Shown: positions 28,187-51,326, numbered from the stretch's first letter. The stretch: 64,000 bases of DNA from a bacterium (GCA_021788365.1 JAJYKS010000001.1:137962-201961); one strand, 5' to 3'. Numbers and translations: made by a program. The notes: generated from the sequence alone by a model not told the origin.

Positions 28187-28249
28187 GTTTTTAGCCTTAT
28201 CTATGTTTACAAGATGGCTGGCGCTCCTGAACTATGTGGGAACGTGGTA

Positions 28250-30425: not shown

Positions 30426-30467
30426 ATGAAAAGTATATATGGATCAGTGCCTAGTTCGTCTAGGAAA

Positions 30468-31238
30468 CTAGAGCTGTATTTTATTGTTATTAAATTTCTC
30501 TAAGATCTTGATTTCGTTTGACCATATCTCATTTATATTTGGTCCTTTATATAGAATTTCTTGAACCATTTGCAGCATAGGATTATTCTGGTTCGACAAG
30601 TTGAGGTCCAATTTCAGGTTATCTCTTGTAATATATTTATTCATTAAGTCACATCTGACAATTTCTCCTGTCGACATATATAGCAGTAGCTCTCGCTTAG
30701 GATCGCTTGAATATCCCACTTCTATGTCCCACGGAATATTTTTCCCTGATACTAAGTAGAAATACAGATCCACTTCATGTATACCAAGGTCGAAAACTGG
30801 ACCTTCTAAATTAGCTCTATTGGGTTGGAAGCCGAATCTACTACTTCGTATTTTCGAAACGTGGGAAAGATCGACGTTCTTTTTGATAAATGAGACTACT
30901 GGATTATATCTTTCAAGGGTAGATTGGTATAGGATTTTCCCTCTCTCCTCAGCTAAGTTTTCAAGGTTGAGAGATTTATTAACCGATAGACATATAGGTT
31001 TTTCAACAAGTACATTGTAATCACTTTCTAATAAGGTTTTGGCAATGGAGAAATGTGTTTCTGATGGGGTAGAGACGATAACAAGATCAACTGCTGGATG
31101 CATTGAGACAAAGTCTTCTACTGATCTGAAATATGCTTTGTTAGCTATCGAAACAACGTCCACTATGTAATCAGCCGAAATGGCCTTATCATAGTATTTC
31201 CCCATTTTCCCATAACCAATAATGGCGAATTTGGACAT
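30468..31238 (-). CDS. Gfo/Idh/MocA-family NAD(P)-dependent oxidoreductase
   Basis: N-terminal Rossmann GxGxxG (IIGYGKMG); EKP motif (LVEKPI) typical of sugar dehydrogenases of this family. Confidence 0.7.
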   Translation of the reverse strand: MSKFAIIGYGKMGKYYDKAISADYIVDVVSIANKAYFRSVEDFVSMHPAVDLVIVSTPSETHFSIAKTLLESDYNVLVEKPICLSVNKSLNLENLAEERGKILYQSTLERYNPVVSFIKKNVDLSHVSKIRSSRFGFQPNRANLEGPVFDLGIHEVDLYFYLVSGKNIPWDIEVGYSSDPKRELLLYMSTGEIVRCDLMNKYITRDNLKLDLNLSNQNNPMLQMVQEILYKGPNINEIWSNEIKILEKFNNNKIQL

Positions 31239-31239
31239 A

Positions 31240-32310
31240 TTATTCTGCCTCCAAAAATGAAGTGAGTGTTGATGATGCTTTTTCCCAAGTGAGGTCTCTA
31301 CTTAACTGGACATTATTTTTTCCCATGGATTCTCTATTTTCATAGGCCATTGCTATACCATTCCTCCACGAATCAATATTTTTATCAACCAGGGATCCGT
31401 TGATACCATCTTTTAATAACCACCCTATTCTTCCCTTCCCCATAACTATTGGTTTACCTACTGCTAGATATTCGCTAACAGCAATTGGACTACAGTCTAC
31501 TGACACTGGGAACACTAAGACATCAGCAATGTTGGTGTAATTGGGTACTTCCAGCAATGGCACTGCACCTGTCTTTATAACTTGAGGTAAATCTGGCAGA
31601 CTAGCTAGTAGAGGTCCATCACCTACAATAAACAGGAGTTGGTTCTCGTCTATTGAAGAAATAATCAATCTAATATCTTCGTACCATTTACTTAATTTAC
31701 CCGTATAAACTAAAATTTGCTTTTGTTCAAAGCTTATATTGTATTTCTTGGCATATTTTAGCTTTAGTAATTTAATCTTTTCATCTGAATATTTGTAGAA
31801 AATATTTTCATCATATCCATTAGGAATAATTACTGTCTTATTTGTTCTGAGACCTTCTCGTTTAAGTGCTTCAAGCATGGTTGGTGATTGTGTGATTACT
31901 TTTGTTGCTATCTTAATTATGGATTCAAAACCTTTTTTTAATAAGAAATATCTTTCATCTGCTCCAAATTCTGTTAAATACATTTCTTCGTACCAATCAA
32001 TGCAATCAAAAACTATTGGGATCTTAATTGTTGGATTTATCAGAAGTGCACTAAGTGGATTGTCTATCAAAATATAATCATATTGGTGTTTTTGTAGATG
32101 CTGATTTAATTTTTCCTGCTCTATCGATACGTCCGAAATATTGTTTAGTATCTTATGTCTTAAGAATTCGACCCTACACTTACCATCCAAGTGTTGAAGT
32201 AAAAATTGCTCCCTTTGTGGGAAGCCCTGAAAGTACCTTGGCGAAAAATGCTGAATACTTTGTGCGTATACCTTATCACCGACTTTTAGTATCCTTTTCA
32301 TGCAAACCAT
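31240..32310 (-). CDS. Glycosyltransferase family 1 (GT4-like)
   Basis: C-terminal GT-B fold with E-x7-E region (EYLAVGKPIV) typical of GT1. Confidence 0.65.
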   Translation of the reverse strand: MVCMKRILKVGDKVYAQSIQHFSPRYFQGFPQREQFLLQHLDGKCRVEFLRHKILNNISDVSIEQEKLNQHLQKHQYDYILIDNPLSALLINPTIKIPIVFDCIDWYEEMYLTEFGADERYFLLKKGFESIIKIATKVITQSPTMLEALKREGLRTNKTVIIPNGYDENIFYKYSDEKIKLLKLKYAKKYNISFEQKQILVYTGKLSKWYEDIRLIISSIDENQLLFIVGDGPLLASLPDLPQVIKTGAVPLLEVPNYTNIADVLVFPVSVDCSPIAVSEYLAVGKPIVMGKGRIGWLLKDGINGSLVDKNIDSWRNGIAMAYENRESMGKNNVQLSRDLTWEKASSTLTSFLEAE

Positions 32311-33293
32311 TCTTCAAGAGCATTTCTAATTTTTTTCACTTCTCGGTCAGTTAGATTCCATCGATTAGGTACACTAACTATTCTAGACGTCCAATCTGTG
32401 TAATACTTCCTTTCGTTTATAGGAAGAATGTCGTCACCGTAATATACGAGTGTGGCAATCCCCTTCTTCTCCATATACTGCCTAAACTTGTCTCTTTTCT
32501 CTATCAGGAGATTAAACACGGAGTATATATGTCTATCTCCTTTATGTTCGGCCAAGAATGGCTGTATCGTAGGGATTACTTGAAGATATTCCCTGGAAAT
32601 ATCTCGTTGTATCTTAATCCTATCTTCATAGTGAGAGAGCTCGTGTAAAAGGAATTCTGCCTTAATTTCGTCCATTCTTAAATTTAAAGCGATGTTCTCT
32701 GTCATTTTTCCATCTTCTCGTCCGGATTGAATAAAGACTTTCATTTTTTGATACAACTCTTCGTCGTTCGTAACAATGGCTCCTCCATGACCGCATGTAT
32801 GAAGCGACTTGGTAGGGTAGAAACTGTAACAACCCACCACCCCGATAGTACCCACTTTCACCCCTTGAATCTCAGCGCCAAAAGCCTGACAAGCATCTTC
32901 TATTAACACGTTTTTGTCAATTTTGTTGACAAGCCGATTTGGTTGACCATACAAATGAACTAGAGTACTTACGGTTGATGGATCAATAGATATCTTTTGT
33001 TCGAGGATATTTTTGCGATATTTAATTTTGTAGCCTAGTAAACGTGCGGGTTGGTAAGTGGCAGGAAAAGTGTAAGGATCAACTATTAATCTTGAATACT
33101 TTTCTCTTAAGGCCCAATATGCTGCAAGTAGTGAAGATGTCCCGTTATTTGTAAGTAAGACATACTTCACATTTAGATATTCTTTGAGTTTTTCCTCCAG
33201 GTTTCTTATCATGATCCCATCAACCCAGTTGCCGGAATTGTACACTTGGCTCTTATAATCAGAATTTAGTAGGTATATCGGTATATTGTCCAT
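32298..33293 (-). CDS. DegT/DnrJ/EryC1/StrS-family PLP-dependent sugar aminotransferase
   Basis: DACQAFGA and SFYPTKSL (Schiff-base Lys region) motifs. Confidence 0.75.
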   Translation of the reverse strand: MDNIPIYLLNSDYKSQVYNSGNWVDGIMIRNLEEKLKEYLNVKYVLLTNNGTSSLLAAYWALREKYSRLIVDPYTFPATYQPARLLGYKIKYRKNILEQKISIDPSTVSTLVHLYGQPNRLVNKIDKNVLIEDACQAFGAEIQGVKVGTIGVVGCYSFYPTKSLHTCGHGGAIVTNDEELYQKMKVFIQSGREDGKMTENIALNLRMDEIKAEFLLHELSHYEDRIKIQRDISREYLQVIPTIQPFLAEHKGDRHIYSVFNLLIEKRDKFRQYMEKKGIATLVYYGDDILPINERKYYTDWTSRIVSVPNRWNLTDREVKKIRNALEEWFA

Positions 33294-33294
33294 A

Positions 33295-34020
33295 TCATTC
33301 TTCTAAAATAGTTGTGAGCAGCTTAGTTCCCGATGCAGAAATAGGTGTATATGAACTGACCTGGAAGGCCTCGCCGTAGGAAGCTCCCGCAGTATTGCCT
33401 CTCAACGCAAGGCAGCTTTTAATTTTAGACATTAGCCAGTCTTGGCTAGTTTTATGTTCATCTTTAACAGATGCATAACAACTGAAAGCAGCCAACTTAT
33501 TCGCTACGTTCTCACTCGATATTGCAGATATAACTTGAGATTCAAAAGGAGTTGTCATTTCTAGATCGACTTCTCCTTGTAGAATTACTGTTGCACTCCA
33601 TTGAGTTTCCCCACCACATAGTTTGCAGCCACTTTGAAAGTTTGCTTCGGGAATTACTTCCCCTAGAGTACGATGGTCAATATGTTTATCTTTTATGTGA
33701 TGCGTAATTATCAAATCTGGTTTGACCCTTCTAATTTCGCCCATAGTGGCCTGAATTAACCTCCCTTTATCTTTTTGTAGTTCCATATCCACAAAATCTA
33801 GAAAATTTACCTGAAATCCCAATAACTTACTACTAGCTTTCCCCTCTAATTTTGTTCGTAAAATTCGAACTTTTTGTTTTTCGGATGCAAAATAAGCTTG
33901 ATCGTTGTTGGTAAAAAAGCTGACATGAACTTCATGATTTTTCTTAACCAGTTTATCAATCGTTCCTCCGCAAAGGATCGTTTCGTCATCTGGGTGCGCT
34001 AGTAATGCCAGGATTTTCAT
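33295..34020 (-). CDS. PIG-L/LmbE-family N-acetyl-sugar deacetylase
   Basis: AHPDDET zinc-binding motif near N-terminus; downstream HxxH. Confidence 0.75.
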   Translation of the reverse strand: MKILALLAHPDDETILCGGTIDKLVKKNHEVHVSFFTNNDQAYFASEKQKVRILRTKLEGKASSKLLGFQVNFLDFVDMELQKDKGRLIQATMGEIRRVKPDLIITHHIKDKHIDHRTLGEVIPEANFQSGCKLCGGETQWSATVILQGEVDLEMTTPFESQVISAISSENVANKLAAFSCYASVKDEHKTSQDWLMSKIKSCLALRGNTAGASYGEAFQVSSYTPISASGTKLLTTILEE

Positions 34021-34029
34021 TTTGGTCTT

Positions 34030-34749
34030 TTATACCTTTCTTTTAGCTCCCCAGATATCACAATGAAGTCTGCCAAGAAGACGATATCCTTTGACCTTTA
34101 CTGTTTCCACTACTTTTTGAGCATTTTCAGATACCTCTAAAGATGTTTTCCCCTGAGGCATGATAATAATTTTGTCTATGTTAAGTTTGAGTGGCTTGAT
34201 AAAATCATTTTCGATTTCATCTAAGTCATTAGTGTTGTTAACCACAAACTTAAAAATAGAATTTGCTTTATTAATCGCTCTTAAAACATTTTCATTTATT
34301 CTGGCTTGACGGAGATTCCCTGAATTCTCTAACTTGGGAGAACAATTAAACTGACAACGTTCAAGAAGGTATTCTGATGGCATGACTGTCCCGTTCGTTT
34401 CAATTTCTACTGTCCAATCTGGCATTAACTTAATTAACGTTTCAATACTACTTTTCTGTAACAATGGCTCTCCACCGGTAATTACAAGACGTTTCTCGAC
34501 TTTTTTATTTGTACATGTCCATGCAGTAATTATTCTTTCTTTAGTTTCCTCAATACTCCATTTTTGCTTTTCATTCCAGAATTCTGGTAATTTGGCATCC
34601 CAGGCGTAGCGCGTATCACACCAAATACATTTCAAATTACATACACACAACCGCAAGAAACATGCGGGCTTACCCATCGAGATTCCTTCACCCTGGATTG
34701 TATAGAAGACGCCGTCGCCTGATACATTAAAATAGTCGTTATTTAGCAT
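34030..34749 (-). CDS. queE: 7-carboxy-7-deazaguanine synthase QueE-like radical SAM enzyme
   Basis: CNLKCIWCDT cluster (QueE-type CxxxCxxC with preceding Cys) and ITGGEPL SAM-binding motif. Adjacent to queD and folE. Confidence 0.8.
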   Translation of the reverse strand: MLNNDYFNVSGDGVFYTIQGEGISMGKPACFLRLCVCNLKCIWCDTRYAWDAKLPEFWNEKQKWSIEETKERIITAWTCTNKKVEKRLVITGGEPLLQKSSIETLIKLMPDWTVEIETNGTVMPSEYLLERCQFNCSPKLENSGNLRQARINENVLRAINKANSIFKFVVNNTNDLDEIENDFIKPLKLNIDKIIIMPQGKTSLEVSENAQKVVETVKVKGYRLLGRLHCDIWGAKRKV

Positions 34750-35179
34750 AACTAGCCTTACTTGTGGGAGTTTCCCAGATAGTTACCTCTGATAACTTAA
34801 GACCTGTACCAAAATTATCTTTAAACTTTGCTGCTAGCTTTTTATATATCCAATACGCAATTCTTTCCGCAGTTGGGATAAAGGGTACCGATAGATTTTT
34901 TAAAAGCGGGTTGGTTTTAAAAAAGCTAGCCATTACTTGGTCTTTTTCCCAATACATGAACGAGTGATCGCAAATATTAATAATCTCTTCTTGGAGAATG
35001 GTTTTGATTTCACCAAAATCCATTACCATATCCTCACTAGATTCGTTTGATTTATTAATTAACGAACCTTCTAGGCAAATTTCTGCCCTATACCTATGGC
35101 CGTGAACATTTTTGCATTGTGATTTATGATTTGGGATGCGGTGGCCCATATCCCATTCGACTATTTTATATACCTTCAT
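34739..35179 (-). CDS. queD: 6-carboxy-5,6,7,8-tetrahydropterin synthase QueD
   Basis: CxNxHGHxY motif (CKNVHGHRY) and HRIP region. Start set to the internal ATG at 35179 (MKVYKIVEWDMGHRI); the track start 35254 overlaps folE by 89 bp. Confidence 0.8.
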   Translation of the reverse strand: MKVYKIVEWDMGHRIPNHKSQCKNVHGHRYRAEICLEGSLINKSNESSEDMVMDFGEIKTILQEEIINICDHSFMYWEKDQVMASFFKTNPLLKNLSVPFIPTAERIAYWIYKKLAAKFKDNFGTGLKLSEVTIWETPTSKASYAK

Positions 35180-35747
35180 GGCTTTTGGCCTCGCTTGACG
35201 TATCAACCTGATGCATAAATTGCATAACAAGGCTTTTGTCTTTATTAAATACACCCGTCTTTATCAAGGTTCTCATCTGACTAGATCCATTTTTTACGCC
35301 GCGCATGCTCATGCATAGATGCTTAGCTTTGCAATAAACGATTACGCCTTTAGTTCTAAGGTTCTTTTGGATTGTTTCAGCTATTTGTTTGGTTAAACGC
35401 TCCTGTAACTGTAATCTGTGGGAAAATATCCCTACTAATCTGGCAAACTTGGATAAACCTAGAACTTTTTTGTCTGGAATATAGCCGATATGAATCTTTC
35501 CATAAAATGGCAGCAGGTGATGTTCGCAGAGGCTATAAAAGTCTATATTTGAGACTACTACCATTCCGTCATAGTCGTCGCTTTTAAAACATTTGAAAAT
35601 ACTTTTAGGATCTAAGTTATAACCATCAAGTAGTTCGGCATACATTTTAGCGACACGCCTGGGTGTTTCCAACAAACCCTCTCTATTAGGATTTTCACCT
35701 ATTTCTGATAACAATTGCCTAGTAATATCCTCTATTCTTGCTGTCAT
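35166..35747 (-). CDS. folE: GTP cyclohydrolase I FolE
   Basis: CEHHLLPF catalytic motif and the LTKQIAETI region typical of GCH-I. Confidence 0.85.
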   Translation of the reverse strand: MTARIEDITRQLLSEIGENPNREGLLETPRRVAKMYAELLDGYNLDPKSIFKCFKSDDYDGMVVVSNIDFYSLCEHHLLPFYGKIHIGYIPDKKVLGLSKFARLVGIFSHRLQLQERLTKQIAETIQKNLRTKGVIVYCKAKHLCMSMRGVKNGSSQMRTLIKTGVFNKDKSLVMQFMHQVDTSSEAKSHEGI

Positions 35748-35853
35748 ATTTAATAACTATTATTACGACTGCATAATTCTACTATAGGTTTCCAGGCAGG
35801 TAAAGAGCGTCACCAGGGGTGGTTTCGGAGTAACATTTATTAAATAAATTTCT

Positions 35854-36753
35854 CTATTTTGCAGATTTTTCATATTCATATCCAGATAAGTAGAACATTC
35901 TCCAAAAAGCAATAAACAAAGCAGTATCCCATCCATATTTCTCCATAGCCGTTTGATAGTATTCTTTTGCACCCTCAGTAAAATAACCCGTCTGGATTTG
36001 ATTCCATAGATCTGGGCATTTATTTCCCACTCTTTCGATTTGTGCCTCACTTCTGCCGAATTGGAACGCCGTTCTTAATTCGTGCTTTAAATCTATGGGG
36101 TCATGGTAAATGACTGCCTCTTGGGACACAAAGATGGGTACGCCGGCAGCCTTAATTTTTTGATCTAGATATCCATCATCACCAAATCTTACTTCGGGGT
36201 GGTATATATTACCCTCTTCTCCGATAACATCTATGAGCTCTCTCCGCTTTAACCCAAGTCCTGGTGAATATGATTTTGGTTCATAACGATTTTCGTGTGT
36301 CCTGGAATTGCTGATCAATTTACTAACCCTACTACCATCGTTAAGAAATATAACAGTTGGCTGAACTACCAAGTTACCCATCTTCAAGGATTGATTGATT
36401 ATTGCGATGGCGCCAGGTGCAAAAACAGAGTCGCTGTCCATGACAATAATATCGTTATGAGTTGATTCTTTGATCCCAGCTTCTGCAGCAATACTCCAAT
36501 TTCCATACCTGTGAGGGGCGACTTTAATACCTCTTATTTCATCTATAAAATCAGCGTCGTCTGCTACACTTGCCACAACCTCAACGGGCACATCTATAGA
36601 ATCCATACACCGGAGAAGTCCTTCTCTACTTCTTCCACATCTAATGACAACAGAGAGATCAGTTTTTTGATTTAAACCATTTTCAAATTTCATATTGCTT
36701 ACTTTAAGCCCTATATTTGTAGGCATTTTACTACTATAAGTCATTCTAGTCAA
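35854..36753 (-). CDS. Glycosyltransferase family 2
   Basis: N-terminal GT-A fold; DxD (MDSDS) motif. Confidence 0.6.
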   Translation of the reverse strand: MTRMTYSSKMPTNIGLKVSNMKFENGLNQKTDLSVVIRCGRSREGLLRCMDSIDVPVEVVASVADDADFIDEIRGIKVAPHRYGNWSIAAEAGIKESTHNDIIVMDSDSVFAPGAIAIINQSLKMGNLVVQPTVIFLNDGSRVSKLISNSRTHENRYEPKSYSPGLGLKRRELIDVIGEEGNIYHPEVRFGDDGYLDQKIKAAGVPIFVSQEAVIYHDPIDLKHELRTAFQFGRSEAQIERVGNKCPDLWNQIQTGYFTEGAKEYYQTAMEKYGWDTALFIAFWRMFYLSGYEYEKSAK

Positions 36754-36781
36754 AAAAAATATTAGTAGTAAAATATGCTCT

Positions 36782-37981
36782 ATGCTATCTCAAGAGAAGA
36801 ATATTCCTCTAGAATATCATGGTAGAAGTATAGGCGCGGCTGACTATGTTGCCGCAGTTTCTGCGGAAAATGTTCACAATATTATTGGACCTCATAATGT
36901 TTTGTTACAAGTCAATTATGGATGCTATCTTCATTGTGAGATGTGTGATCGCCATAAATGGGTAAAGGAAGGGGTCCCCGTAGATGAAACGATGACAACA
37001 AACCAGCTGTTGGGATTGGTTGATGAGCTTTCGGCCATGGGAACCAGGCGAATTACAATTGTTGGAACAGAACCCGTCATGAGGAAAGATTTGACTCTTA
37101 TGCTCGGGAGAATCAGAGAGAATAATATAAAACCAGAATTATATACGGCCGGTATAGTACTATCAGATGAGTTGATTGAGTCGATATTGTTAACATCAAC
37201 AGATGTGGCATTTTCTTTAGATGGTTTTAATGAGAATAGCCATAATCGCATAAGAGTCCCAAATAATGAGTTCAATGCCTATGCGCGGACACTAGGTTCG
37301 ATAGAGCGGTTAACAAAAGCAAGGGCGGCAAAAAATATTAGCCAAGAAAACGTTAGAATAACGGCAAATTTCACCATTCAACGGAATAACATTAGTGATT
37401 TAGCGCTAGTAACACCAGAACAAATTGATTTATGCGGTTTAGACGTTTTGCGGATGTCTGTGGTACACGGTGAGGGTAGCTATGCTTTAGTAAGTGAAGA
37501 CATACCGATAATATTAGAGTTTATGCAAAGGATGAAAGCGAATTCATCGCGTACTGAAATATCATTTTCAAATGCATTGGAATATCTTGCTAACAATTCG
37601 CTTACCCCCCAAGATTTTAATGTAAATACTCTTATTCCTTCACGAATCGCTGATGGCACTAATAAATTAAAGTGCCACATCGCAGAATACAGTACGATGA
37701 TTGATCCGAAAGGAGATGTCCGTCCTTGCCTGTATTTGTATGACGATAACGGTTCGTTTGACTCAAGTGATCGAGATCAGTTTGTGATGGGAAACGTAAA
37801 AAATGATTCGTTTAGAGCAATTTGGAATGGTGAAGCATATACCACTTTTAGAAGGTCAAAGGAATACCCGGATTTGAAGAGTGGCAGTCGTTGTCGTACA
37901 TGCGAATACACTGATCAGTTTGAAGAGATGGATCAAATAATTGCCTTATCAAAAATTAACGATATTCAGATTGGTTGGTAA
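36782..37981 (+). CDS. Radical SAM / SPASM-domain protein
   Basis: CYLHCEMC (CxxxCxxC) near N-terminus; C-terminal Cys cluster CLYLYD...CRTCEY consistent with SPASM/twitch auxiliary cluster. Confidence 0.7.
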   Translation: MLSQEKNIPLEYHGRSIGAADYVAAVSAENVHNIIGPHNVLLQVNYGCYLHCEMCDRHKWVKEGVPVDETMTTNQLLGLVDELSAMGTRRITIVGTEPVMRKDLTLMLGRIRENNIKPELYTAGIVLSDELIESILLTSTDVAFSLDGFNENSHNRIRVPNNEFNAYARTLGSIERLTKARAAKNISQENVRITANFTIQRNNISDLALVTPEQIDLCGLDVLRMSVVHGEGSYALVSEDIPIILEFMQRMKANSSRTEISFSNALEYLANNSLTPQDFNVNTLIPSRIADGTNKLKCHIAEYSTMIDPKGDVRPCLYLYDDNGSFDSSDRDQFVMGNVKNDSFRAIWNGEAYTTFRRSKEYPDLKSGSRCRTCEYTDQFEEMDQIIALSKINDIQIGW

Positions 37982-39168
37982 ATATGTTAATCGAAGGCAT
38001 ACACTCGTTTCACATTAACGAATCAGGGGCGCCCACAGGAGGAGCCGAACGTTATTTAATAGCGCTTCATCAGGAATTACAGGCTTCTGGAAATCCCGCA
38101 ATATTGATATACGGCCGTAATGAGCCTGGGACTTATCTTCCGCCTGATGGTTCTACAATTGTAGAAGGAATTGATTTGGCAGATGAGCCAGAATCTTCAA
38201 GAGCTGGGTTCCTACAGCTATTAAAACATAATAAACCTGATTTAATTCACTTTCATAATCTAAATAACACCTCCCTTATTTCTCAGATGTCTACTACTCA
38301 AACAACGGTAAGGACAGTACATGATTCTAGATTATTTTGTCCAATGGAGTTCAGAATGAAGAATAATGGAGAATTATGTAATGAAGCGGCAGGATTAAAC
38401 TGTCTTGCTTGTATGAGTGATTTCCAAATGGATAATGACGAATCCATTACGAGATTAAAACAAACGATGCAAGAAATTGAAGCTACAAAACAAGTGTCAA
38501 TTCTTGTAACTCCAAGCAATTATATTAGGGAGCAACTAATTCTTAATCAAGTTGACGACTCTAAGATCATAGTTATACCTCCATTCTTATTAAACGAGAT
38601 AGATACTTCATCTTCACATATGGAGAAAGAAACAACCGATGTTCTTTTTGTAGGAAGAATTGTTAGATCAAAGGGACTTCATCTCTTACTCGAAAGTTTG
38701 GTAGAGTTGCCGAATGATACAACTTTAACCATCGTTGGAGATGGACCTGATTTGAATAACAATATCGAACTATCTAGACGATTAAAATTAGGTAACAGGG
38801 TAAGCTTTGTTGGATGGGCAAATTCTAACCAGTTGAGCCACTATTATCGTCGATCCAAGGTATTAGCAGTTCCATCGATGGGTCCTGAAGCGTTTGGGTT
38901 AGTTGGATTAGAAGCTATGGCAGAGGGAAAACCAGTCGTGGCTTTTGACTCTGGTGGAATTAACCAATGGTTAGTTGATGGCATTAATGGATATTTGGTT
39001 TCTAGGGGCAATGTAGAAGATCTGACTGACAAAATTGGTCGACTAATTAATAATCAGGACTTGAGAAATAGTTTTGGCCATAATGGATTATCCATGATAC
39101 ATGAAACTTTTAATCGGAAAGCTCATGTTGATAGACTTCTTACTATATACCAATCAATACTCACCTAG
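37975..39168 (+). CDS. Glycosyltransferase family 1
   Basis: GT-B C-terminal domain with EAFGLVGLEAMAEGKPVV (E-x7-E). Confidence 0.75.
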   Translation: MVNMLIEGIHSFHINESGAPTGGAERYLIALHQELQASGNPAILIYGRNEPGTYLPPDGSTIVEGIDLADEPESSRAGFLQLLKHNKPDLIHFHNLNNTSLISQMSTTQTTVRTVHDSRLFCPMEFRMKNNGELCNEAAGLNCLACMSDFQMDNDESITRLKQTMQEIEATKQVSILVTPSNYIREQLILNQVDDSKIIVIPPFLLNEIDTSSSHMEKETTDVLFVGRIVRSKGLHLLLESLVELPNDTTLTIVGDGPDLNNNIELSRRLKLGNRVSFVGWANSNQLSHYYRRSKVLAVPSMGPEAFGLVGLEAMAEGKPVVAFDSGGINQWLVDGINGYLVSRGNVEDLTDKIGRLINNQDLRNSFGHNGLSMIHETFNRKAHVDRLLTIYQSILT

Positions 39169-39182
39169 TATAAAATTAGATC

Positions 39183-39902
39183 ATGAGAAAAGATTATTCT
39201 TTGGTCGCTAAGGAAGTTGGTAAAGAATACGAGTCTCACCCTAACTTAATCGGTATTTTGTGGATTGGCTCCTCTTCTTTTGGGATAACTGATCGCTTTG
39301 CAGATATTGATATTCGTTTATTAATTGATAAATCAAATAAACAATTCCCAATGCAACAATTTGTTAGACATGGAATCAATATTGAAGTAGACGAAATAAG
39401 TTGGGATTGGTTGATGAAAAATCATGCCATTGATAGTGAAGAGCGCTGGATAAGAGAGAAAGGGGTTGTCCTATATGATCCTCATAAGCGAATTGCTAAA
39501 AGATACACATTTTTGAAGAGAAAGATGAGGGTTTCAACCAACAGACAATTATGGGAAGAATTTAAGGATATTTTTTATAGTAACGACATTGAGAATTGTC
39601 TAAGGAGAGATGATATTGTTACCTCCACCCTTTATCTTAATAGAGGAATCGAAAAGATGCTTAAGTTTATCTTTTTGTTTAACGAGAAGCCCGTCCCACC
39701 GTTTAAATGGCGGTGGTATTTTGTACGTCAGGATAAAATTCTTCCATCAAAAATAACTGATTTAATGGAAGATATTATAAAAACTAGTGACTCTATAAAT
39801 AATAAATTGGAAAAATTAATTAGTATAGAAAGAGAGTTTCAAAAACTGATGATAGCAAAGGGATTTCCCAAAGAGCAGGTTATGGAGCATTGGCGGTTTT
39901 AA
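39183..39902 (+). CDS. Pol-beta-superfamily nucleotidyltransferase
   Basis: GSSSFGITDRFADID matches the GSx9-13Dx[DE] NTase motif. Confidence 0.55.
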   Translation: MRKDYSLVAKEVGKEYESHPNLIGILWIGSSSFGITDRFADIDIRLLIDKSNKQFPMQQFVRHGINIEVDEISWDWLMKNHAIDSEERWIREKGVVLYDPHKRIAKRYTFLKRKMRVSTNRQLWEEFKDIFYSNDIENCLRRDDIVTSTLYLNRGIEKMLKFIFLFNEKPVPPFKWRWYFVRQDKILPSKITDLMEDIIKTSDSINNKLEKLISIEREFQKLMIAKGFPKEQVMEHWRF

Positions 39903-39903
39903 A

Positions 39904-41433
39904 TCAAACGTTCCATGTTAAATAGGGATGAAAAAGGTCGATATTTCTGAAAATAGTGCTGTAGAAAATCATAGCTCGTTCATCGTCTCCATCTGCTTCC
40001 CTCAGCTTATCCTTTAACCTTGCTTGCAGTGGACTAATTCTGTGGTTATTACGGTTGAGATAGATTTCAATGTCTCTTCCGAACATTGCCGTCCCCTGGT
40101 TAAGCTTATCCTCAATCTCGGCAAGAAGTGGAACCATGTCATTAAACCCAGATTCGAAATATGGGTGGGTGAAAGCCTGGAAACCATATGATGTAAGGAA
40201 TTCAGGAGGCACATTTAAGAGCCTACCATTTTGTTGCATCTTCTTAAAAACTAGAGTGTCTGGCTCCATCATCATATTAGATACTATGAACCCTGAAGGG
40301 TTCAATTCTTGAAGCTGGTCAATCTCATGTCCTATGTTTTGTCTGCTATGCCAATCGTGACCAATGATAAATGTGGTAGCGATTTTGACACCTGCTGATT
40401 GATATTCCTTAATTTCTTCTTTGAGGTCAACATTATCATTTTTTGCATATGGATTAAGCATTGATTCAACGCCAATATTGACACAGGTAACACATAAATC
40501 TCCCTCAGTTATTTCTGCAGGCGAATATTGTTTTAGTATTTTTGAAGATGTGGTAGTAGCAAGTTCGACCGTATATCCTAAGTTGCGGCATCTCTTAAAT
40601 ATTTCTTTCCAAGTGGGAATATCACCCATACCTTGAGGATCAGCTAAGGAGAGAGAAATGACTTCATCTTCTTTTCCCAGCATTCTGTGTGCATAGTCTA
40701 TGGCTGAAATGATTTCATCTGCAGAATGGGGAGCGGTGAACTTGCCTTTGAATTGTGCCGTGGCTGGGCAGAAGTCACACTGATAGAAGCACCCATAACT
40801 AGACATCATCACGCCTATGGTGCTATTTTTAGCTTGGTTGCTGTAGGTAGTTTGGGTATGAGATGGTACGACGGATACCTTGAGTGGACGGCTGTCTTCG
40901 CCCAATAGCTTTCTTAAATCATCGATTTGGTTACCTTTAAGTGAGTAGTCTGATAATTGTGAAGTCTCCGGGATGGTAGCGCCAACTGCACCAGCTATTA
41001 TTTTTATTTCAGGGTGAACTTTACGTAAATGTTCGCTAATATCCCGAAAAACGCTATAGCCATTAAGGTAGATGGAAACAACTAAAGCTTTAATGTCTGG
41101 CTCATTTTTTAGTGTTTTTTCGAGATTTTCGATTGATATAGGATCTCGAATAACGATCCCATCTTTTTGAGTATTTATATTTAAGAAATTACCTGGTGGA
41201 TTCTCAGGCGCCCACGAAAAGGAAAAATTCTCACCTGCTTGTCTTTCTTTTAAAGCAGATATGTGTTCTTCTAAGAAATTTGCATCATAGAATTGTGGGT
41301 TTCCCCGCTGGATATATTCTCTCCCAACCTGATCAAGGTATTCAAGCTGCTTTGCTCTATTAGTTGTATTGTAGTCATACGATTGAGCGACTCCATATGC
41401 TATGGGACCTTCAATGACTGTCTCTTTTTGCAT
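39904..41433 (-). CDS. B12-binding-domain radical SAM protein (class B)
   Basis: 509 aa; N-terminal Rossmann-like cobalamin-binding region; CFYQCDFC (CxxxCxxC) radical SAM cluster. Confidence 0.7.
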   Translation of the reverse strand: MQKETVIEGPIAYGVAQSYDYNTTNRAKQLEYLDQVGREYIQRGNPQFYDANFLEEHISALKERQAGENFSFSWAPENPPGNFLNINTQKDGIVIRDPISIENLEKTLKNEPDIKALVVSIYLNGYSVFRDISEHLRKVHPEIKIIAGAVGATIPETSQLSDYSLKGNQIDDLRKLLGEDSRPLKVSVVPSHTQTTYSNQAKNSTIGVMMSSYGCFYQCDFCPATAQFKGKFTAPHSADEIISAIDYAHRMLGKEDEVISLSLADPQGMGDIPTWKEIFKRCRNLGYTVELATTTSSKILKQYSPAEITEGDLCVTCVNIGVESMLNPYAKNDNVDLKEEIKEYQSAGVKIATTFIIGHDWHSRQNIGHEIDQLQELNPSGFIVSNMMMEPDTLVFKKMQQNGRLLNVPPEFLTSYGFQAFTHPYFESGFNDMVPLLAEIEDKLNQGTAMFGRDIEIYLNRNNHRISPLQARLKDKLREADGDDERAMIFYSTIFRNIDLFHPYLTWNV

Positions 41434-41532
41434 GTGGTATATTATATACTAACCTTATAAGGTTATATTTATACGTTAAATAAGTCATATACTATAGGGA
41501 GTTGGGTCAAAGTCAATTTCCAGTCAGAGCAA

Positions 41533-42522
41533 ATGAAAAAAATAATATCGAACATACCACCGATGGAATGGGGCAGCGCATCAAAACTCATGGATGACAG
41601 GCCAGCAGTTCTTATTACCAGCCGTACAGCACTGAAAGTATCGCAACCCTTTATAAATAACATTAACATTAATGAAACAGTTATTATTGAAAATAGTCAT
41701 CGCGAGTATGTAGAGTCAATTCAAATTAAAAGACAGGATATCGCTATAGCCTATTTAGTAGGAGCAGGTCAAGTTAATGATATAGGGCGATATCTATCCT
41801 ACAAATGGCAATTGCCTGTAATAAGTATTCCTACCGCGATAACTGCAGATGCTTTTCTAGTAGATTGTACTGGGTTAAGAGAGAACAGAGGAGTAACGTA
41901 TCAGCCATCAAAAAGAGCGAATAAAATTGTACTTGATTGGGAATTGTTAAAAAAAGCACCTTGGAATATCAATGTCAGTGGCTGTGGAGATGTACTATCA
42001 ATTTTTACTGGACTTTGGGACTGGCAACATTTCGATGAATTTTACGATGTGGCTGTAGCAACCGAAGCAAAAGGTATTCTTGATGCTTTAATTAGCCAAA
42101 AAAACTCGATCGTTCGGCCTTCTCAAAAAGCATTGGAAATGCTCGTGAATTGCTTAGCAATGGAAGTTCAGTTGTGTTATCTATATGGTAATAGCAGGCC
42201 AGAAGAAGGTGGTGAGCACTTTTTCGCTTATTGTATAGAAAACAAGATAGGGCATTGTTTGCATGGTGAGATTGTGGGTTTTGGTATCCTTTTGACAGGC
42301 TTCTTGCAAAATCAAGATATAACCCAGATTAAAAACTTTATGGATACGATTAGTATGAGCTATTTACCTAGTAATATTAATGAAAAGGTGGTTATAGATA
42401 CACTAAGAGAACTACCCCAATATGTCAGAGAACAAAATTTGCGTTCTAGCATCTATAATAATTTTAACTATGATCAATCTAAGGAGAAGATAAAGTCTTT
42501 CTTTAAGTTAATAAACCTATGA
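41533..42522 (+). CDS. Dehydroquinate-synthase-like / glycerol-1-phosphate dehydrogenase-like enzyme
   Basis: GAGQVNDIG (GGGxxxD-like NAD motif), ISIPTAITADA and HCLHGEIVGFG metal-binding His motifs of the DHQS/Fe-ADH superfamily. Confidence 0.55.
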   Translation: MKKIISNIPPMEWGSASKLMDDRPAVLITSRTALKVSQPFINNININETVIIENSHREYVESIQIKRQDIAIAYLVGAGQVNDIGRYLSYKWQLPVISIPTAITADAFLVDCTGLRENRGVTYQPSKRANKIVLDWELLKKAPWNINVSGCGDVLSIFTGLWDWQHFDEFYDVAVATEAKGILDALISQKNSIVRPSQKALEMLVNCLAMEVQLCYLYGNSRPEEGGEHFFAYCIENKIGHCLHGEIVGFGILLTGFLQNQDITQIKNFMDTISMSYLPSNINEKVVIDTLRELPQYVREQNLRSSIYNNFNYDQSKEKIKSFFKLINL

Positions 42523-43193
42523 ACATTAAAACTAAATTTAACGAGGAGCTACTAATTGGTTTGGAGCGACAACCAACCAAAAAGGCTGTGCTATTGTTTT
42601 CTGGTGGAATTGATAGCACTGCTGCGGGAATTTTACTGAAAGAAAAAGGCTATCGAGTATTTCCACTATTTATCGATTATGGTCAAAGTTCGTTGGCAGC
42701 AGAACAATTAGTTGTTAACAAAATTGCTATCAAATTAGGTTTTGAGCCTGTTAGAGTCATAACTACTGAATTGCTCAAACAACTAACGAAAAGTAATCTC
42801 TTGGGTAAAGAGGCAGTCGATGATAGCCAAGCTTGGGTTCCAGGAAGAAATACTTTATTCATGATCATTGCCGGCATTTTTGCAAAGCAGGTTGATGCTG
42901 ACGGGGTATGTATTGGTTATATGCTTGATGACAATTTTGTTTTTGGAGATAATGATTATTTTCATCATAAGAATGTTGAGCAATTATTATCCAAGTCTTT
43001 TTTACAACCAATGGAAGTATTTATGCCTATTGTTAGTTACAGGAAAAAGGATTTAGTCACGCTTCTTATGGAGAAAGGCTTGTTAAGTGATACTGTTTCG
43101 TGTTGGAATGCTAAAGTAGTTAGGGGTAAGGTGGTTTCTTGCGGAAGTTGTGCGAATTGTTTAGAGAGAAATAGCTTGTTGGTTGTTAAATAA
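42519..43193 (+). CDS. queC: 7-cyano-7-deazaguanine synthase QueC
   Basis: PP-loop SGGIDST; C-terminal zinc-binding CWNAK...CGSCANC typical of QueC; 4-bp overlap with upstream gene. Confidence 0.85.
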   Translation: MNIKTKFNEELLIGLERQPTKKAVLLFSGGIDSTAAGILLKEKGYRVFPLFIDYGQSSLAAEQLVVNKIAIKLGFEPVRVITTELLKQLTKSNLLGKEAVDDSQAWVPGRNTLFMIIAGIFAKQVDADGVCIGYMLDDNFVFGDNDYFHHKNVEQLLSKSFLQPMEVFMPIVSYRKKDLVTLLMEKGLLSDTVSCWNAKVVRGKVVSCGSCANCLERNSLLVVK

Positions 43194-43223
43194 AATAAAA
43201 ATTATAGCTTTATATGTACCGGT

Positions 43224-43601
43224 ATGGCAGAATTTAAAATCGAAGTTGGAACACGATTTAAAGTAAATCCGGGAGTTTTTAAGAACTCTGGAATAGAAAG
43301 GGTTATCTTAAACCCTAAGCCCCATAACAATCGAGACGAAATTCTTGCCGCCCTATTTGTATCAGAACCTGACTGTATGTTATATCAGTTTCATGAGTTG
43401 TCTGCTGGATATATCTGGAATTTAGGTAAAGTGCCAAAATTGTCGAACGACGAAATTATTCGATATCTAGAAACATCTTTGAGAATCGGTAGGATTTCTG
43501 CTGGACAAATGAGGGATGTTAAACAACAAATCAGAGATGGTATATCAAAAAGGAATATTGTAATTCAGCGATTAGATAGCATTTTGGAAAGAGCTTATTG
43601 A
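43224..43601 (+). CDS. Hypothetical protein
   Basis: 125 aa; no motif. Confidence 0.35.
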   Translation: MAEFKIEVGTRFKVNPGVFKNSGIERVILNPKPHNNRDEILAALFVSEPDCMLYQFHELSAGYIWNLGKVPKLSNDEIIRYLETSLRIGRISAGQMRDVKQQIRDGISKRNIVIQRLDSILERAY

Positions 43602-44295: not shown

Positions 44296-44301
44296 AAAAA
44301 C

Positions 44302-51271: not shown

Positions 51272-51326
51272 GAACAGAAATTGTAATTATACCTGGCAAG
51301 TTGTACCTACAAGGTATAATTAGCTT

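What the first reader, a model, noticed from the sequence alone, without database searches (positions are those of the whole stretch)
36782..41433. Three radical SAM enzymes of different classes (QueE-type, SPASM-type, B12-dependent) within 7 kb
Besides QueE at 34030-34749, the cluster encodes a SPASM/twitch-type rSAM (CYLHCEMC plus a C-terminal Cys cluster). SPASM enzymes often act in peptide or sugar maturation or as dehydrogenases. It also encodes a 509 aa class-B cobalamin-binding rSAM (CFYQCDFC), a class that usually does C-methylation or other difficult C-C bond formation. This points to chemistry well beyond preQ0 formation, such as methylation or epimerisation of a sugar or deazapurine scaffold.
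Basis: partly seen in the sequence, partly recalled or inferred. Interest (0 to 1): 0.55.

Follow-up and report, generated by a model that had tools for sequence, protein, structure and literature searches.

The report
Three radical-SAM deazaguanine cluster in CPR bacterium
A mobile, low-GC island in a tiny-genome Patescibacteria bacterium carries a 16-gene pathway that builds a 7-deazaguanine base and probably decorates it with amino-sugars, using three radical-SAM enzymes, two of them from rare uncharacterised families, so it likely makes an unknown nucleoside-type antibiotic.

Summary
Three radical SAM (rSAM) genes lie within 7.4 kb, and they hold the only three CX3CX2C motifs in long ORFs of the window. 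They sit in a 16-gene cluster (29253-43601) on a low-GC island of a Patescibacteria genome. The cluster recurs in other low-GC contigs.

- **399-aa enzyme:** it passes Pfam SPASM but has only four invariant C-terminal cysteines. These align with the four auxiliary-cluster cysteines of BtrN, so it is twitch-type with one auxiliary cluster. It always sits beside a GT-A-like protein.
- **509-aa enzyme:** it has class-B architecture, a Rossmann-like domain followed by an rSAM barrel. Its B12 signature is sub-threshold (14 bits against a cutoff of 32). Its best structural match is AprD4, a diol dehydratase that does not bind cobalamin. Cobalamin dependence is therefore unproven. In all 8 related loci it co-occurs with QueC and a glycerol-1-phosphate-dehydrogenase-like enzyme.
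- **Rarity:** 14 clusters among 5.8 billion.
- **Tailoring genes:** GT4 plus PIG-L deacetylase, and Gfo/Idh/MocA dehydrogenase plus DegT aminotransferase. These mirror aminoglycoside and peptidyl-nucleoside logic.
- **Resistance-like genes:** sister clusters add Erm/KsgA-like methyltransferases, APH-type kinases and GNATs.

The likely product is a new glycosylated 7-deazaguanine metabolite. No TGT/DpdA is present, so nucleic-acid modification is unlikely.

The parts
29253..30425 (-). MFS transporter, probable exporter of the product
   Evidence: PF07690 E 3.7e-27. A 41%-identical copy lies in sister locus L006.
30468..31238 (-). Gfo/Idh/MocA NAD-dependent sugar dehydrogenase (GenD2/KanD2-like role)
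   Evidence: PF01408 E 1.6e-15. Syntenic with the DegT, GT and PIG-L genes in L003, L004, L087 and L088.
31240..32310 (-). GT-B glycosyltransferase (356 aa)
   Evidence: Glyco_trans_1_4 and Glycos_transf_1 hits. 49-56% identical orthologues in four sister loci.
32298..33293 (-). DegT/DnrJ/EryC1 sugar aminotransferase
   Evidence: PF01041 E 8.9e-54. 57-62% identical orthologues in four sister loci.
33295..34020 (-). PIG-L family N-acetylglucosaminyl deacetylase (BshB/MshB/BtrD-like)
   Evidence: PF02585 E 2.4e-25. Best NCBIfam hit is BshB1 at 81.5 bits, below its cutoff.
34030..34749 (-). [quoted passage not shown]
   Evidence: The five best NCBIfam hits are all QueE models (best 94 bits, below cutoffs). 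It is flanked by QueD and FolE, with QueC in the cluster. It is conserved in all related loci that carry preQ0 genes.
34739..35254 (-). QueD (6-carboxytetrahydropterin synthase, PTPS family)
   Evidence: PF01242 E 2e-30.
35166..35747 (-). FolE, GTP cyclohydrolase I
   Evidence: PF01227 E 1.7e-71.
35854..36753 (-). Uncharacterised GT-A-like protein with an invariant DxD motif; candidate base- or sugar-glycosyltransferase that pairs with the SPASM enzyme
   Evidence: Weak PF00535 hit, E 1.4e-4. D106 and D108 are invariant. It is present in 6 of 6 loci that carry the SPASM enzyme, including L090 and L091, which lack the 509-aa enzyme.
36782..37981 (+). Radical SAM enzyme with a SPASM-family, functionally twitch-type C-terminal domain (one auxiliary 4Fe-4S cluster); CxxxCxMC motif
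   Evidence: PF04055 plus PF13186. Invariant cysteines are C48, C52, C55, C298, C316, C371 and C374. The C-terminal domain aligns to the BtrN auxiliary-cluster cysteines, E 2.9e-8. AF2 pLDDT 90.9. Foldseek matches include SkfB, DesII, SuiB, anSME, BlsE and BtrN.
37975..39168 (+). GT4 glycosyltransferase (BshA/MshA/BtrM-like, probably a GlcNAc transferase)
   Evidence: PF00534 E 2.8e-38 and GT4-conflict E 2.4e-9. Best NCBIfam hits are BshA and MshA, below cutoffs.
39183..39902 (+). Probable Pol-beta-fold nucleotidyltransferase (DUF4037-like, 239 aa)
   Evidence: PF13228 E 1.6e-4. Invariant G29-S30...D41-x-D43 motif. Weak PDB hit to a putative nucleotidyltransferase, E 0.03.
39904..41433 (-). 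509-aa radical SAM enzyme with class-B-like architecture (N-terminal Rossmann-like domain plus rSAM barrel); CFYQCDFC motif
   Evidence: AF2 pLDDT 84.9, pTM 0.87. Foldseek best match is AprD4 (E 3.5e-10), followed by MgmA, TsrM, CysS and TokK. PF02310 reaches only 14.2 bits. HpnJ partial hit, E 3.7e-12. The family has 14 clusters among 5.8 billion.
41533..42522 (+). Glycerol-1-phosphate / glycerol dehydrogenase-like NAD(P) metallo-dehydrogenase; invariant partner of the 509-aa enzyme
   Evidence: PDB profile hits to G1PDH 5fb3 (E 5.8e-30) and to glycerol dehydrogenases. The predicted metal ligands D153, H229 and H244 are invariant. It is present with the 509-aa gene in 8 of 8 loci.
42519..43193 (+). 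QueC homologue (preQ0 synthase, or a CDG-amine amide ligase)
   Evidence: PF06508 E 2.8e-35. TIGR00364 gives 107.5 bits against a cutoff of 150.
43224..43601 (+). 125-aa ORF of unknown function; not conserved in sister loci, so membership is doubtful
   Evidence: No Pfam, NCBIfam, PADLOC or PHROG hit. No tblastn hit in 10 sister loci.

Best explanation
The three radical SAM genes are real and belong to one horizontally mobile biosynthetic gene cluster (29253-43601). The cluster makes a decorated 7-deazaguanine (pyrrolopyrimidine) secondary metabolite, probably an amino-sugar glycoside or pseudo-nucleoside antibiotic, in a Patescibacteria (CPR) bacterium.

The genes fall into three separable modules.

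1. FolE, QueD, QueE and QueC make the 7-deazaguanine base (CDG/preQ0) from GTP. This step follows from the established pathway.
2. The 509-aa enzyme always occurs with a glycerol-phosphate-dehydrogenase-like enzyme and QueC. It has the class-B layout but a degenerate B12-binding domain. I infer that it abstracts a hydrogen from a carbinol carbon of a diol, sugar or polyol unit and drives a radical dehydration or rearrangement to a carbonyl. The NAD(P)H metallo-dehydrogenase would then reduce that carbonyl, as in the AprD4/AprD3 pair. Cobalamin is probably not used for methyl transfer.
3. The SPASM-family enzyme carries a single BtrN-type auxiliary cluster and always travels with a GT-A-like protein. 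I infer that the GT-A-like protein attaches a sugar. The radical enzyme would then oxidise or decarboxylate that sugar, in the manner of BtrN, DesII or BlsE, to give a ketone that the DegT aminotransferase aminates.

Further amino-sugar decoration comes from GT4 plus the PIG-L deacetylase (GlcNAc transfer followed by de-N-acetylation) and from the Gfo/Idh/MocA dehydrogenase plus DegT. The MFS transporter exports the product.

Shown here: gene content, synteny, motifs, folds and rarity. Inferred: substrates, reaction types and product.
For: - **Motifs:** the three genes hold the only three CX3CX2C motifs in long ORFs of the window.
- **Synteny:** the cluster recurs in L003, L004, L087 and L088, with shorter versions in L005, L006, L007 and L089.
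- **Co-occurrence:** the 509-aa gene is found with the FeADH2-like gene, QueC, QueE and QueD in 8 of 8 loci. The SPASM gene is found with the GT-A-like gene in 6 of 6 loci, two of which lack the 509-aa enzyme.
- **SPASM enzyme:** four invariant C-terminal cysteines align column for column with the BtrN auxiliary-cluster cysteines. The CX3CX2C motif starts at residue 48, which leaves no room for a peptide-recognition domain. The family shares the unusual CxxxCxMC methionine with BlsE (PMC3715490). The sugar-acting enzymes DesII, BlsE and BtrN are among the structural matches.
- **509-aa enzyme:** the model is confident. The best PDB match is AprD4, followed by B12-rSAM methylases. PF02310 is only sub-threshold. 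AprD4 does not bind cobalamin (PMC12931638) and works with a reductase partner (PMC5461906).
- **Dehydrogenase partner:** it matches G1PDH at E 5.8e-30 and keeps the predicted metal ligands.
- **Tailoring pairs:** GT4 and PIG-L best match BshA/MshA and BshB. The Gfo/Idh/MocA plus DegT pair mirrors GenD2/GenS2 (PMC5461906).
- **Resistance-like genes in sister loci:** divergent KsgA/Erm-like methyltransferases, APH-family kinases and GNATs.
- **Host:** a flanking housekeeping permease is about 70% identical to Roizmanbacteria, Woesebacteria and Gottesmanbacteria proteins.
Against: - No product or activity is known for any family member.
- All matches to named enzymes fall below family cutoffs.
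- AprD4 similarity is structural only (TM about 0.5, 14% identity, sequence E 0.5), and B12-dependent methylases score almost as well.
- AprD3 is not, as far as I recall, a Fe-ADH/G1PDH-type enzyme, so the pairing analogy is functional rather than homologous.
- The short clusters (L005, L006, L089) keep the 509-aa enzyme without any glycosyltransferase. Its substrate may therefore not be an attached sugar.
- No enzyme that obviously links the free base to a sugar has been identified. The GT-A-like assignment rests on a weak hit (E 1.4e-4) and a DxD motif.
- The window's copy lacks the rRNA-methyltransferase-like gene found in most sister loci.
Confidence: 0.6

Rival explanations
1. The 509-aa enzyme is a true cobalamin-dependent class-B radical SAM C-methyltransferase (GenK/GenD1/Fom3-like) that methylates the sugar or the deazapurine.
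For: It has an N-terminal five-stranded Rossmann-like domain followed by an rSAM barrel. Foldseek matches MgmA/QCMT, TsrM, CysS and TokK at E 1e-9 to 1e-7. A weak PF02310 hit falls at the expected position (residues 102-154), and 7 of 13 family members hit that model, best E 0.0011. More distant relatives reach the PF02310 threshold: P0198 scores 32.2 bits, and the Hodarchaeota homologue scores 30.3 bits. The N-terminal domain is strongly conserved, which suggests it binds a ligand.
Against: PF02310 is far below threshold in every family member and undetected in the five closest outgroup representatives tested. The top structural match is the cobalamin-free AprD4 (PMC12931638). The invariant partner is a dehydrogenase, which methylation does not require. 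As general knowledge, not tested here, Patescibacteria usually lack cobalamin synthesis.
Confidence: 0.28
2. The cluster is a nucleic-acid modification system rather than a small-molecule pathway. It would build a glycosylated 7-deazaguanine that is inserted into DNA or RNA, as a Dpd-like or phage-like hypermodification that serves the mobile island.
For: The cluster sits on a mobile island with a terminase, a ParB-methylase, a serine recombinase and defence-type genes. The GT4 protein hits the Pfam 'GT4-conflict' model. Sister clusters carry RNA-binding-type proteins: KsgA/Erm-like methyltransferases and GlyRS- or SerRS-like paralogues.
Against: No TGT/DpdA-family protein appears in the Pfam annotations of the window cluster or of the nine fetched relatives. 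PADLOC reports no Dpd component apart from a marginal DpdJ-like helicase stretch. An MFS exporter lies in the cluster. IMG/VR holds no close relative of either enzyme.
Confidence: 0.08
3. The SPASM enzyme is a RiPP maturase acting on a small precursor peptide and is unrelated to the deazaguanine genes.
For: Most characterised SPASM enzymes modify peptides. The top sequence and structure matches include SkfB, CteB, SuiB and PqqE.
Against: Only 47 residues precede the CX3CX2C motif, which is too short for an RRE domain. The intergenic gaps in the cluster are about 100 bp or less, and no conserved small ORF is present. The enzyme has a single auxiliary cluster. Its neighbours in six loci are always glycosyltransferases.
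Confidence: 0.03

Closest known systems
BtrN (butirosin 2-deoxy-scyllo-inosamine dehydrogenase, twitch-domain radical SAM)
   Same: The C-terminal domain aligns at E 2.9e-8, and all four auxiliary-cluster cysteines fall in the same columns. There is no N-terminal peptide-binding domain. A DegT aminotransferase lies in the same cluster, as BtrS does in butirosin.
   Different: The protein has 399 aa against 250-270. The rSAM core is closer to SkfB, CteB and MoaA. There is an insertion between the core and the twitch region. The cluster has no 2-deoxy-scyllo-inosose synthase, and the substrate is unknown.
BlsE/MilG (radical SAM decarboxylase acting on cytosylglucuronic acid) with the CGA synthase BlsD
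   Same: Both share the unusual CxxxCxMC motif (PMC3715490). BlsE is among the sequence and structure matches (7vob, E 3e-7; TM 0.54/0.64). In both cases a free nucleobase pathway is combined with a dedicated glycosyltransferase and a radical SAM enzyme.
   Different: Similarity is confined to the rSAM core. The base here is 7-deazaguanine, not cytosine. Homology between the GT-A-like protein and BlsD was not tested.
AprD4/AprD3 (radical SAM 1,2-diol dehydratase plus NADPH reductase, apramycin C3' deoxygenation)
   Same: AprD4 is the best structural match of the 509-aa enzyme (6fd2, E 3.5e-10). Both have a Rossmann-like N-terminal domain without a recognisable B12 signature. Both have an obligate NAD(P)-dependent partner and sit in an amino-sugar context.
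   Different: Identity is 12-14% and TM about 0.5, and sequence-level similarity is not significant (E 0.5). The partner here is G1PDH/glycerol-dehydrogenase-like. The 509-aa family has its own N-terminal extension of about 70 aa.
Class-B cobalamin-dependent radical SAM enzymes (TsrM, TokK, CysS, MgmA/QCMT, GenK/GenD1, HpnJ)
   Same: The domain order and fold agree. HpnJ is the best NCBIfam hit (E 3.7e-12). More distant homologues carry PF02310.
   Different: PF02310 scores 14 bits against a cutoff of 32. There is no evidence of cobalamin binding, and no methyl-acceptor logic is apparent.
Known 7-deazapurine natural-product clusters (toyocamycin/sangivamycin, tubercidin, huimycin, roseomycin A)
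   Same: They share the FolE-QueD-QueE-QueC core joined to tailoring enzymes. Like huimycin, this cluster has glycosyltransferases (PMC7439116; bioRxiv 10.64898/2026.04.15.718813).
   Different: The known clusters are actinobacterial, and QueE is their only radical SAM enzyme. None of those described carries a SPASM enzyme, a class-B-like enzyme, or the PIG-L, DegT and Gfo modules. This cluster has no phosphoribosyltransferase.

Membership tests
Radical SAM superfamily | CX3CX2C cluster-binding motif in a partial TIM barrel | tested here: met
   The motif is invariant in both families: C48/C52/C55 and C215/C219/C222. PF04055 hits were found. Predicted folds match solved rSAM structures.
SPASM domain (PF13186 / TIGR04085) | Profile match above the curated threshold | tested here: met
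   PF13186 scores 54.3 bits against a cutoff of 21.5, covering residues 298-374.
SPASM domain (canonical two-auxiliary-cluster type) | Seven-cysteine motif CX9-15GX4C ... CX2CX5CX3C ... C that ligates two auxiliary 4Fe-4S clusters (motif as I recall it from the literature) | tested here: not met
   Only C298-x12-G-x4-C316 and C371-x2-C374 are present and invariant. The domain has no other conserved cysteine.
Twitch subclass (BtrN-type, one auxiliary cluster) | Four cysteines positioned as in the BtrN auxiliary cluster | tested here: met
   The profile alignment to 4m7s places the four invariant cysteines on BtrN C169, C187, C232 and C235.
Twitch subclass (BtrN-type) | Carbinol dehydrogenase activity on an aminocyclitol or sugar | not testable with these tools
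   Inferred only from context (DegT aminotransferase and glycosyltransferases).
Class-B (cobalamin-dependent) radical SAM | N-terminal Rossmann-like B12-binding domain preceding the rSAM domain | tested here: inconclusive
   The fold is present (strands 11-16, 71-76, 92-94, 116-121 and 144-148) and matches TsrM, TokK and MgmA. However, PF02310 scores 14.2 bits against 32.1, and the cobalamin-free AprD4 matches best.
Class-B (cobalamin-dependent) radical SAM | Actual binding and use of cobalamin | not testable with these tools
   These enzymes bind cobalamin base-off (PMC12931638). I know of no diagnostic sequence motif for that mode, so sequence cannot settle the question.
QueE (7-carboxy-7-deazaguanine synthase) | Match to QueE equivalog models, and co-occurrence with FolE, QueD and QueC | tested here: inconclusive
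   The five best NCBIfam hits are all QueE models, but the best scores 94 bits against a cutoff of 260. The genomic context is fully met.
2-deoxystreptamine aminoglycoside cluster | A DHQS-like 2-deoxy-scyllo-inosose synthase (sugar-phosphate cyclase) | tested here: not met
   The only member of the DHQS/Fe-ADH superfamily in the cluster matches G1PDH and glycerol dehydrogenases only. No DHQS or DOIS chain appears at E of 0.01 or better.
Dpd / phage 7-deazaguanine DNA modification system | A DpdA/TGT-family transglycosylase | tested here: not met
   No TGT-family Pfam or PADLOC hit was found in the window cluster or in the annotated sister loci.
Toyocamycin/tubercidin-type deazapurine nucleoside cluster | A phosphoribosyltransferase (PF00156) that couples the base to PRPP | tested here: not met
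   No PF00156 hit was found in any cluster protein. The feature is listed as defining in bioRxiv 10.64898/2026.04.15.718813.

The most novel reading that the evidence does not exclude
An ultra-small CPR (Patescibacteria) episymbiont carries, on a serine-recombinase island that also holds phage-defence genes, a pathway for a previously unknown class of hexopyranosyl or amino-sugar 7-deazaguanine antibiotic. Two new radical SAM reaction types build it: a B12-domain-derived but cobalamin-free radical dehydratase or rearrangase paired with a polyol dehydrogenase, and a BlsE/BtrN-like sugar-modifying twitch enzyme. The compound would target the ribosome or a polymerase of the host bacterium or of phages. 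The Erm/KsgA-like methyltransferases, APH kinases and GNATs of sister clusters would act as immunity genes. On this reading it is a mobile chemical weapon or chemical anti-phage defence of CPR bacteria.
Probability: 0.2. Interest if true: 0.85.

Novelty: new variant of a known kind. Interest (0 to 1): 0.62.

Why it matters
- **Known chemistry is narrower.** Described 7-deazapurine natural-product pathways are actinobacterial and use one radical SAM enzyme, QueE. This cluster family adds two uncharacterised radical SAM families. One is extremely rare: 14 clusters among 5.8 billion, and five full-length representatives in 1.84 billion.
- **It bears on B12-rSAM annotation.** The rare family sits on the boundary between cobalamin-dependent class-B enzymes and cobalamin-free AprD4-like enzymes. 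That makes it a good test case for how B12-rSAM annotations over-reach.
- **CPR bacteria are poorly known producers.** As I understand it, these bacteria have minimal metabolism and few known secondary metabolites. A roughly 14-kb mobile antibiotic-like pathway in them would bear on how episymbionts interact with hosts and phages.
- **It combines two logics.** The cluster couples aminoglycoside or peptidyl-nucleoside tailoring with a deazaguanine base, which suggests a new scaffold.

Tried and rejected
- **E. coli origin:** megablast of the cluster and of a flank against all complete E. coli genomes found no match.
- **Sequence search of the 509-aa profile against the PDB:** nothing significant. 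TokK gave E 0.31 and AprD4 gave E 0.51.
- **Defence-system membership:** PADLOC gave nothing for the cluster proteins except a generic QueC hit. PHROGs gave nothing except generic rSAM hits for the SPASM enzyme.
- **Phage carriage:** IMG/VR holds no close relative of either enzyme.
- **Regulatory RNA:** no preQ1 or other riboswitch was found; Rfam reports only tRNA-Gln. Promoter-like sites are at shuffle level.
- **Island att sites:** no direct repeat of 13 bp or more links the two island ends.
- **Structure-less annotation of the 239-aa and 299-aa proteins against the PDB:** only marginal hits.
- **2-DOS aminoglycoside pathway:** I considered and rejected membership because the Fe-ADH-like protein is G1PDH-like, not a cyclase.
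- **Transfer from CPR bacteria into another phylum:** rejected, because the flanking housekeeping gene is itself Patescibacteria-like.
- **Literature:** no paper links Patescibacteria, BGCs and deazaguanine. The 2026 deazapurine BGC survey does not mention SPASM, B12 or Patescibacteria.

Full report
**1. Observation**

ORF listing confirms three genes at the stated coordinates:
- a 239-aa gene at 34030-34749 (-);
- a 399-aa gene at 36782-37981 (+);
- a 509-aa gene at 39904-41433 (-).

Their motifs are CNLKCIWC, CYLHCEMC and CFYQCDFC. These are the only CX3CX2C motifs in any open frame of at least 150 aa in the whole 64-kb window.

Pfam gives the following:
- Radical_SAM plus SPASM for the 399-aa protein (E 7.4e-12 and 1.7e-14);
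- Radical_SAM plus Fer4_12 for the 239-aa protein;
- a sub-threshold Radical_SAM hit for the 509-aa protein (20.6 bits, cutoff 29.5).

All 13 members of the 509-aa family hit Radical_SAM, best E 4e-7. The five best NCBIfam hits of the 239-aa protein are all QueE models, though all fall below cutoff.

**2. Setting**

The genes lie in a low-GC stretch (0.34-0.45) that runs from about 26.4 kb to 59.8 kb. The flanks have GC 0.50-0.56.

The stretch ends next to tRNA-Gln at 59832-59905. It carries several mobile-element and defence genes:
- a serine recombinase, a ParB-methylase, an AbiU2-like HEPN protein and a Cas4-like nuclease fused to RNase H;
- a terminase large subunit (PHROG E 1.6e-84) and a Sie-like protein;
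- a 1529-aa helicase/REase matching the PADLOC candidate PDC-S37, E 9e-63.

The exact protein sequences occur in the MAG GCA_027372535.1. A flanking ABC permease is about 70% identical to proteins named from Roizmanbacteria, Woesebacteria, Gottesmanbacteria and 'Patescibacteria group'. The host is therefore itself a CPR bacterium, and the cluster sits on a mobile island within it.

**3. The cluster**

From 29253 to 43601 the genes are:
- MFS transporter;
- Gfo/Idh/MocA dehydrogenase;
- GT-B glycosyltransferase;
- DegT aminotransferase;
- PIG-L deacetylase;
- QueE, QueD and FolE;
- a GT-A-like 299-aa protein;
- the SPASM enzyme;
- a GT4 glycosyltransferase;
- a probable nucleotidyltransferase;
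- the 509-aa enzyme;
- a G1PDH-like dehydrogenase;
- QueC;
- an unconserved 125-aa ORF.

**4. Comparative genomics**

The 509-aa family is very rare. A word-indexed search of 5.8 billion clusters found 14. An exhaustive profile search of 1.84 billion representatives found only five full-length representatives at E below 1e-100, 41 at E of 1e-30 or better, and 1642 at E of 1e-3 or better.

Eight related loci were fetched, all with GC 0.34-0.41, and compared by tblastn.
- The 509-aa gene co-occurs with the G1PDH-like gene, QueC, QueE and QueD in 8 of 8 loci.
- 'Long' clusters (window, L003, L004, L087, L088) add the SPASM enzyme, the GT-A-like protein and the quartet of PIG-L, DegT, GT and Gfo.
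- 'Short' clusters (L005, L006, L089) carry neither the SPASM enzyme nor the glycosyltransferases. In their place they have GlyRS- or SerRS-like paralogues, GNATs and methyltransferases.

The SPASM family has 34 clusters at E of 1e-10 or better. It is always adjacent to, or near, the GT-A-like protein (6 of 6 loci). Two of those loci lack the 509-aa enzyme. L090 has preQ0 genes plus a carbamoyltransferase and a phosphatase. L091 has no preQ0 genes and lies on a conjugative or integrative element.

The three radical SAM enzymes therefore mark three separable modules.

Divergent KsgA/Erm-like methyltransferases score 110-150 bits, below the 171-bit RsmA cutoff. They occur in six of the eight sister loci that carry the 509-aa gene but not in the window. 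APH-family kinases occur in L004, L087 and L090.

**5. The 399-aa enzyme**

In a 21-sequence alignment the invariant cysteines are C48, C52 and C55 plus only C298, C316, C371 and C374.

A profile search of the PDB aligns the C-terminal domain to BtrN (4m7s) at E 2.9e-8. The four cysteines fall on BtrN C169, C187, C232 and C235. From memory, these are BtrN's auxiliary-cluster ligands. The canonical seven-cysteine SPASM motif is not met, so this is a one-auxiliary-cluster, twitch-type enzyme that still passes the Pfam SPASM model.

The AF2 model is confident (pLDDT 90.9). Foldseek returns SkfB, DesII, SuiB, CteB, anSME, PqqE, BlsE, MoaA and BtrN.

Only 47 residues precede the CX3CX2C motif, so there is no room for a peptide-recognition domain. 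No conserved small ORF lies nearby. This argues against a RiPP role.

The family motif is CxxxCxMC, with the methionine at least 90% conserved. BlsE is noted for the same unusual methionine (PMC3715490). BlsE decarboxylates cytosylglucuronic acid, which the synthase BlsD makes from a free base and UDP-glucuronate. That logic would fit the invariant pairing with a GT-A-like protein here. This is a lead, not a demonstrated homology.

**6. The 509-aa enzyme**

The AF2 model (pLDDT 84.9, pTM 0.87) shows a five-stranded alpha/beta domain followed by the rSAM barrel.

The Foldseek ranking is:
- AprD4 (6fd2, E 3.5e-10, TM 0.52/0.58);
- MgmA/QCMT;
- TsrM;
- CysS;
- TokK;
- MiaB and RimO.

PF02310 is detected only weakly. 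The window protein scores 14.2 bits at residues 102-154. Seven of 13 members hit the model, best E 0.0011, against a cutoff of 32.1 bits.

Evidence from relatives is mixed:
- A Hodarchaeota homologue (29% identity, 501 aa) scores 30.3 bits for PF02310. It sits next to ThiF and GNAT genes and has no preQ0 context.
- The five closest outgroup representatives tested show no PF02310 hit.
- More distant representatives do, with P0198 at 32.2 bits.

The family therefore descends from the B12-domain rSAM lineage but has an eroded signature.

A 2026 review states that AprD4 does not bind cobalamin although it clusters with B12-rSAM enzymes (PMC12931638). AprD4 is a 1,2-diol dehydratase that needs the reductase AprD3 (PMC5461906).

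Here the invariant neighbour is a dehydrogenase. Its profile matches G1PDH (5fb3, E 5.8e-30) and glycerol dehydrogenases. The residues aligned with the metal ligands, D153, H229 and H244, are invariant.

I therefore favour radical dehydration or rearrangement followed by carbonyl reduction, with confidence of about 0.35 for that specific step. Cobalamin-dependent methylation remains a serious rival at about 0.28. The short clusters keep this pair without any glycosyltransferase, which is unexplained and weakens the idea that the substrate is a sugar.

**7. Pathway logic**

Three gene pairs have known parallels:
- GT4 (best hits BshA and MshA) plus PIG-L (best hit BshB1) parallels GlcNAc transfer followed by deacetylation in bacillithiol and mycothiol biosynthesis. 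From memory, the 2-DOS aminoglycosides use the same logic.
- Gfo/Idh/MocA plus DegT parallels GenD2/GenS2 (PMC5461906).
- A twitch rSAM plus DegT parallels BtrN/BtrS.

The cluster is nevertheless not a 2-DOS aminoglycoside cluster. No DHQS-type cyclase is present. It is also not a toyocamycin-type cluster, because it has no phosphoribosyltransferase, and not a Dpd system, because it has no TGT/DpdA.

QueC homologues can act as CDG-amine amide ligases (roseomycin A; bioRxiv 10.64898/2026.04.15.718813). The base may therefore be joined through C7 rather than through an N-glycoside.

**8. Novelty**

A 2026 survey grouped 966 non-nucleic-acid deazapurine pathways, mostly from Streptomyces. It mentions no SPASM enzyme, no B12 enzyme and no Patescibacteria. 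No paper in the library links Patescibacteria, BGCs and deazaguanine.

I classify this as a new variant of a known kind: a 7-deazapurine secondary-metabolite cluster containing two uncharacterised radical SAM families. The product, the substrates and the cobalamin question remain open.

**9. Verdict**

SPASM/twitch is correct. 'B12-dependent' is unproven and somewhat disfavoured. 'Beyond preQ0' is correct.
- Interest is 0.62.

Noticed in passing
window 1-26400 and 59900-64000 (flanks); 8184-9407: The host genome is itself a Patescibacteria (Microgenomates-like) MAG, GCA_027372535.1. A flanking ABC permease is about 70% identical to Roizmanbacteria, Woesebacteria and Gottesmanbacteria proteins. 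The flanks have GC near 0.52, against 0.34-0.45 in the island.
   Followed up: partly
window 43660-50390: A probable defence module lies directly after the cluster. It comprises an AbiU2-like HEPN protein (43660-44295), a Cas4-like PD-(D/E)XK nuclease fused to an RNase H-like domain (44302-45804), and a 1529-aa SF1 helicase with an MTES_1575 REase domain that matches PADLOC candidate PDC-S37 (E 9e-63). None of these is conserved in the sister loci.
   Followed up: partly
window 50786-56604: Mobile-element or prophage-remnant genes: a Sie-like tRNA_anti-like protein, a ParB-N6/N4 DNA methylase fusion, a terminase large subunit (PHROG_38, E 1.6e-84) and a large serine recombinase. tRNA-Gln lies at 59832-59905. 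No direct repeat of 13 bp or more was found between the island ends.
   Followed up: partly
window 56582-58356: A HAD-GNAT fusion (383 aa) and a His_Phos_1 phosphatase sit at the far end of the island. A 32%-identical His_Phos_1 protein lies immediately next to the SPASM gene in L090. These may be detached pathway or immunity genes, for example for acetylation or dephosphorylation of a pro-drug.
   Followed up: no
L003 17231-18187; L004 13427-14398; L005 13894-14688; L087 6326-7288; L088 8877-9833; L089 13269-14333: A divergent KsgA/Erm-like rRNA adenine methyltransferase (110-150 bits, below the RsmA cutoff) accompanies the cluster in six sister loci but is absent from the window. It could be a self-resistance gene, or an N-methyltransferase acting on the deazapurine.
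   Followed up: partly
L005 8800-9999; L006 8814-9965; L088 2281-3417; L089 8779-9984: Sister clusters carry truncated class-II aaRS paralogues just upstream of the 509-aa gene. Three are GlyRS-like. The one in L089 is SerRS-like, lacks the N-terminal arm, and lies next to an Asp/Glu racemase. GNATs and methyltransferases accompany them. This suggests aminoacyl (peptidyl) decoration in some variants.
   Followed up: partly
L091 5549-11182: The module of SPASM enzyme, GT-A-like protein, GT4 and Methyltransf_24, plus a GT2 and a GNAT, occurs without any preQ0 genes. It lies on an element with a relaxase, a TraG-like ATPase and several recombinases. This module can therefore work on a different acceptor.
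   Followed up: no
window 26719-29041: At the left edge of the island lie a ClpP-like protease (173 aa), a DUF2806 protein (289 aa) and a 263-aa protein with no family hit. The last has locally higher GC (0.53 at about 28.5 kb). Their function and their relation to the cluster are unknown.
   Followed up: no
L008 3267-7678 (Hodarchaeota MAG): The nearest outgroup of the 509-aa family (29% identity, PF02310 at 30.3 bits) sits beside ThiF-family and GNAT-like genes in an Asgard archaeon, with no deazaguanine genes.
   Followed up: no
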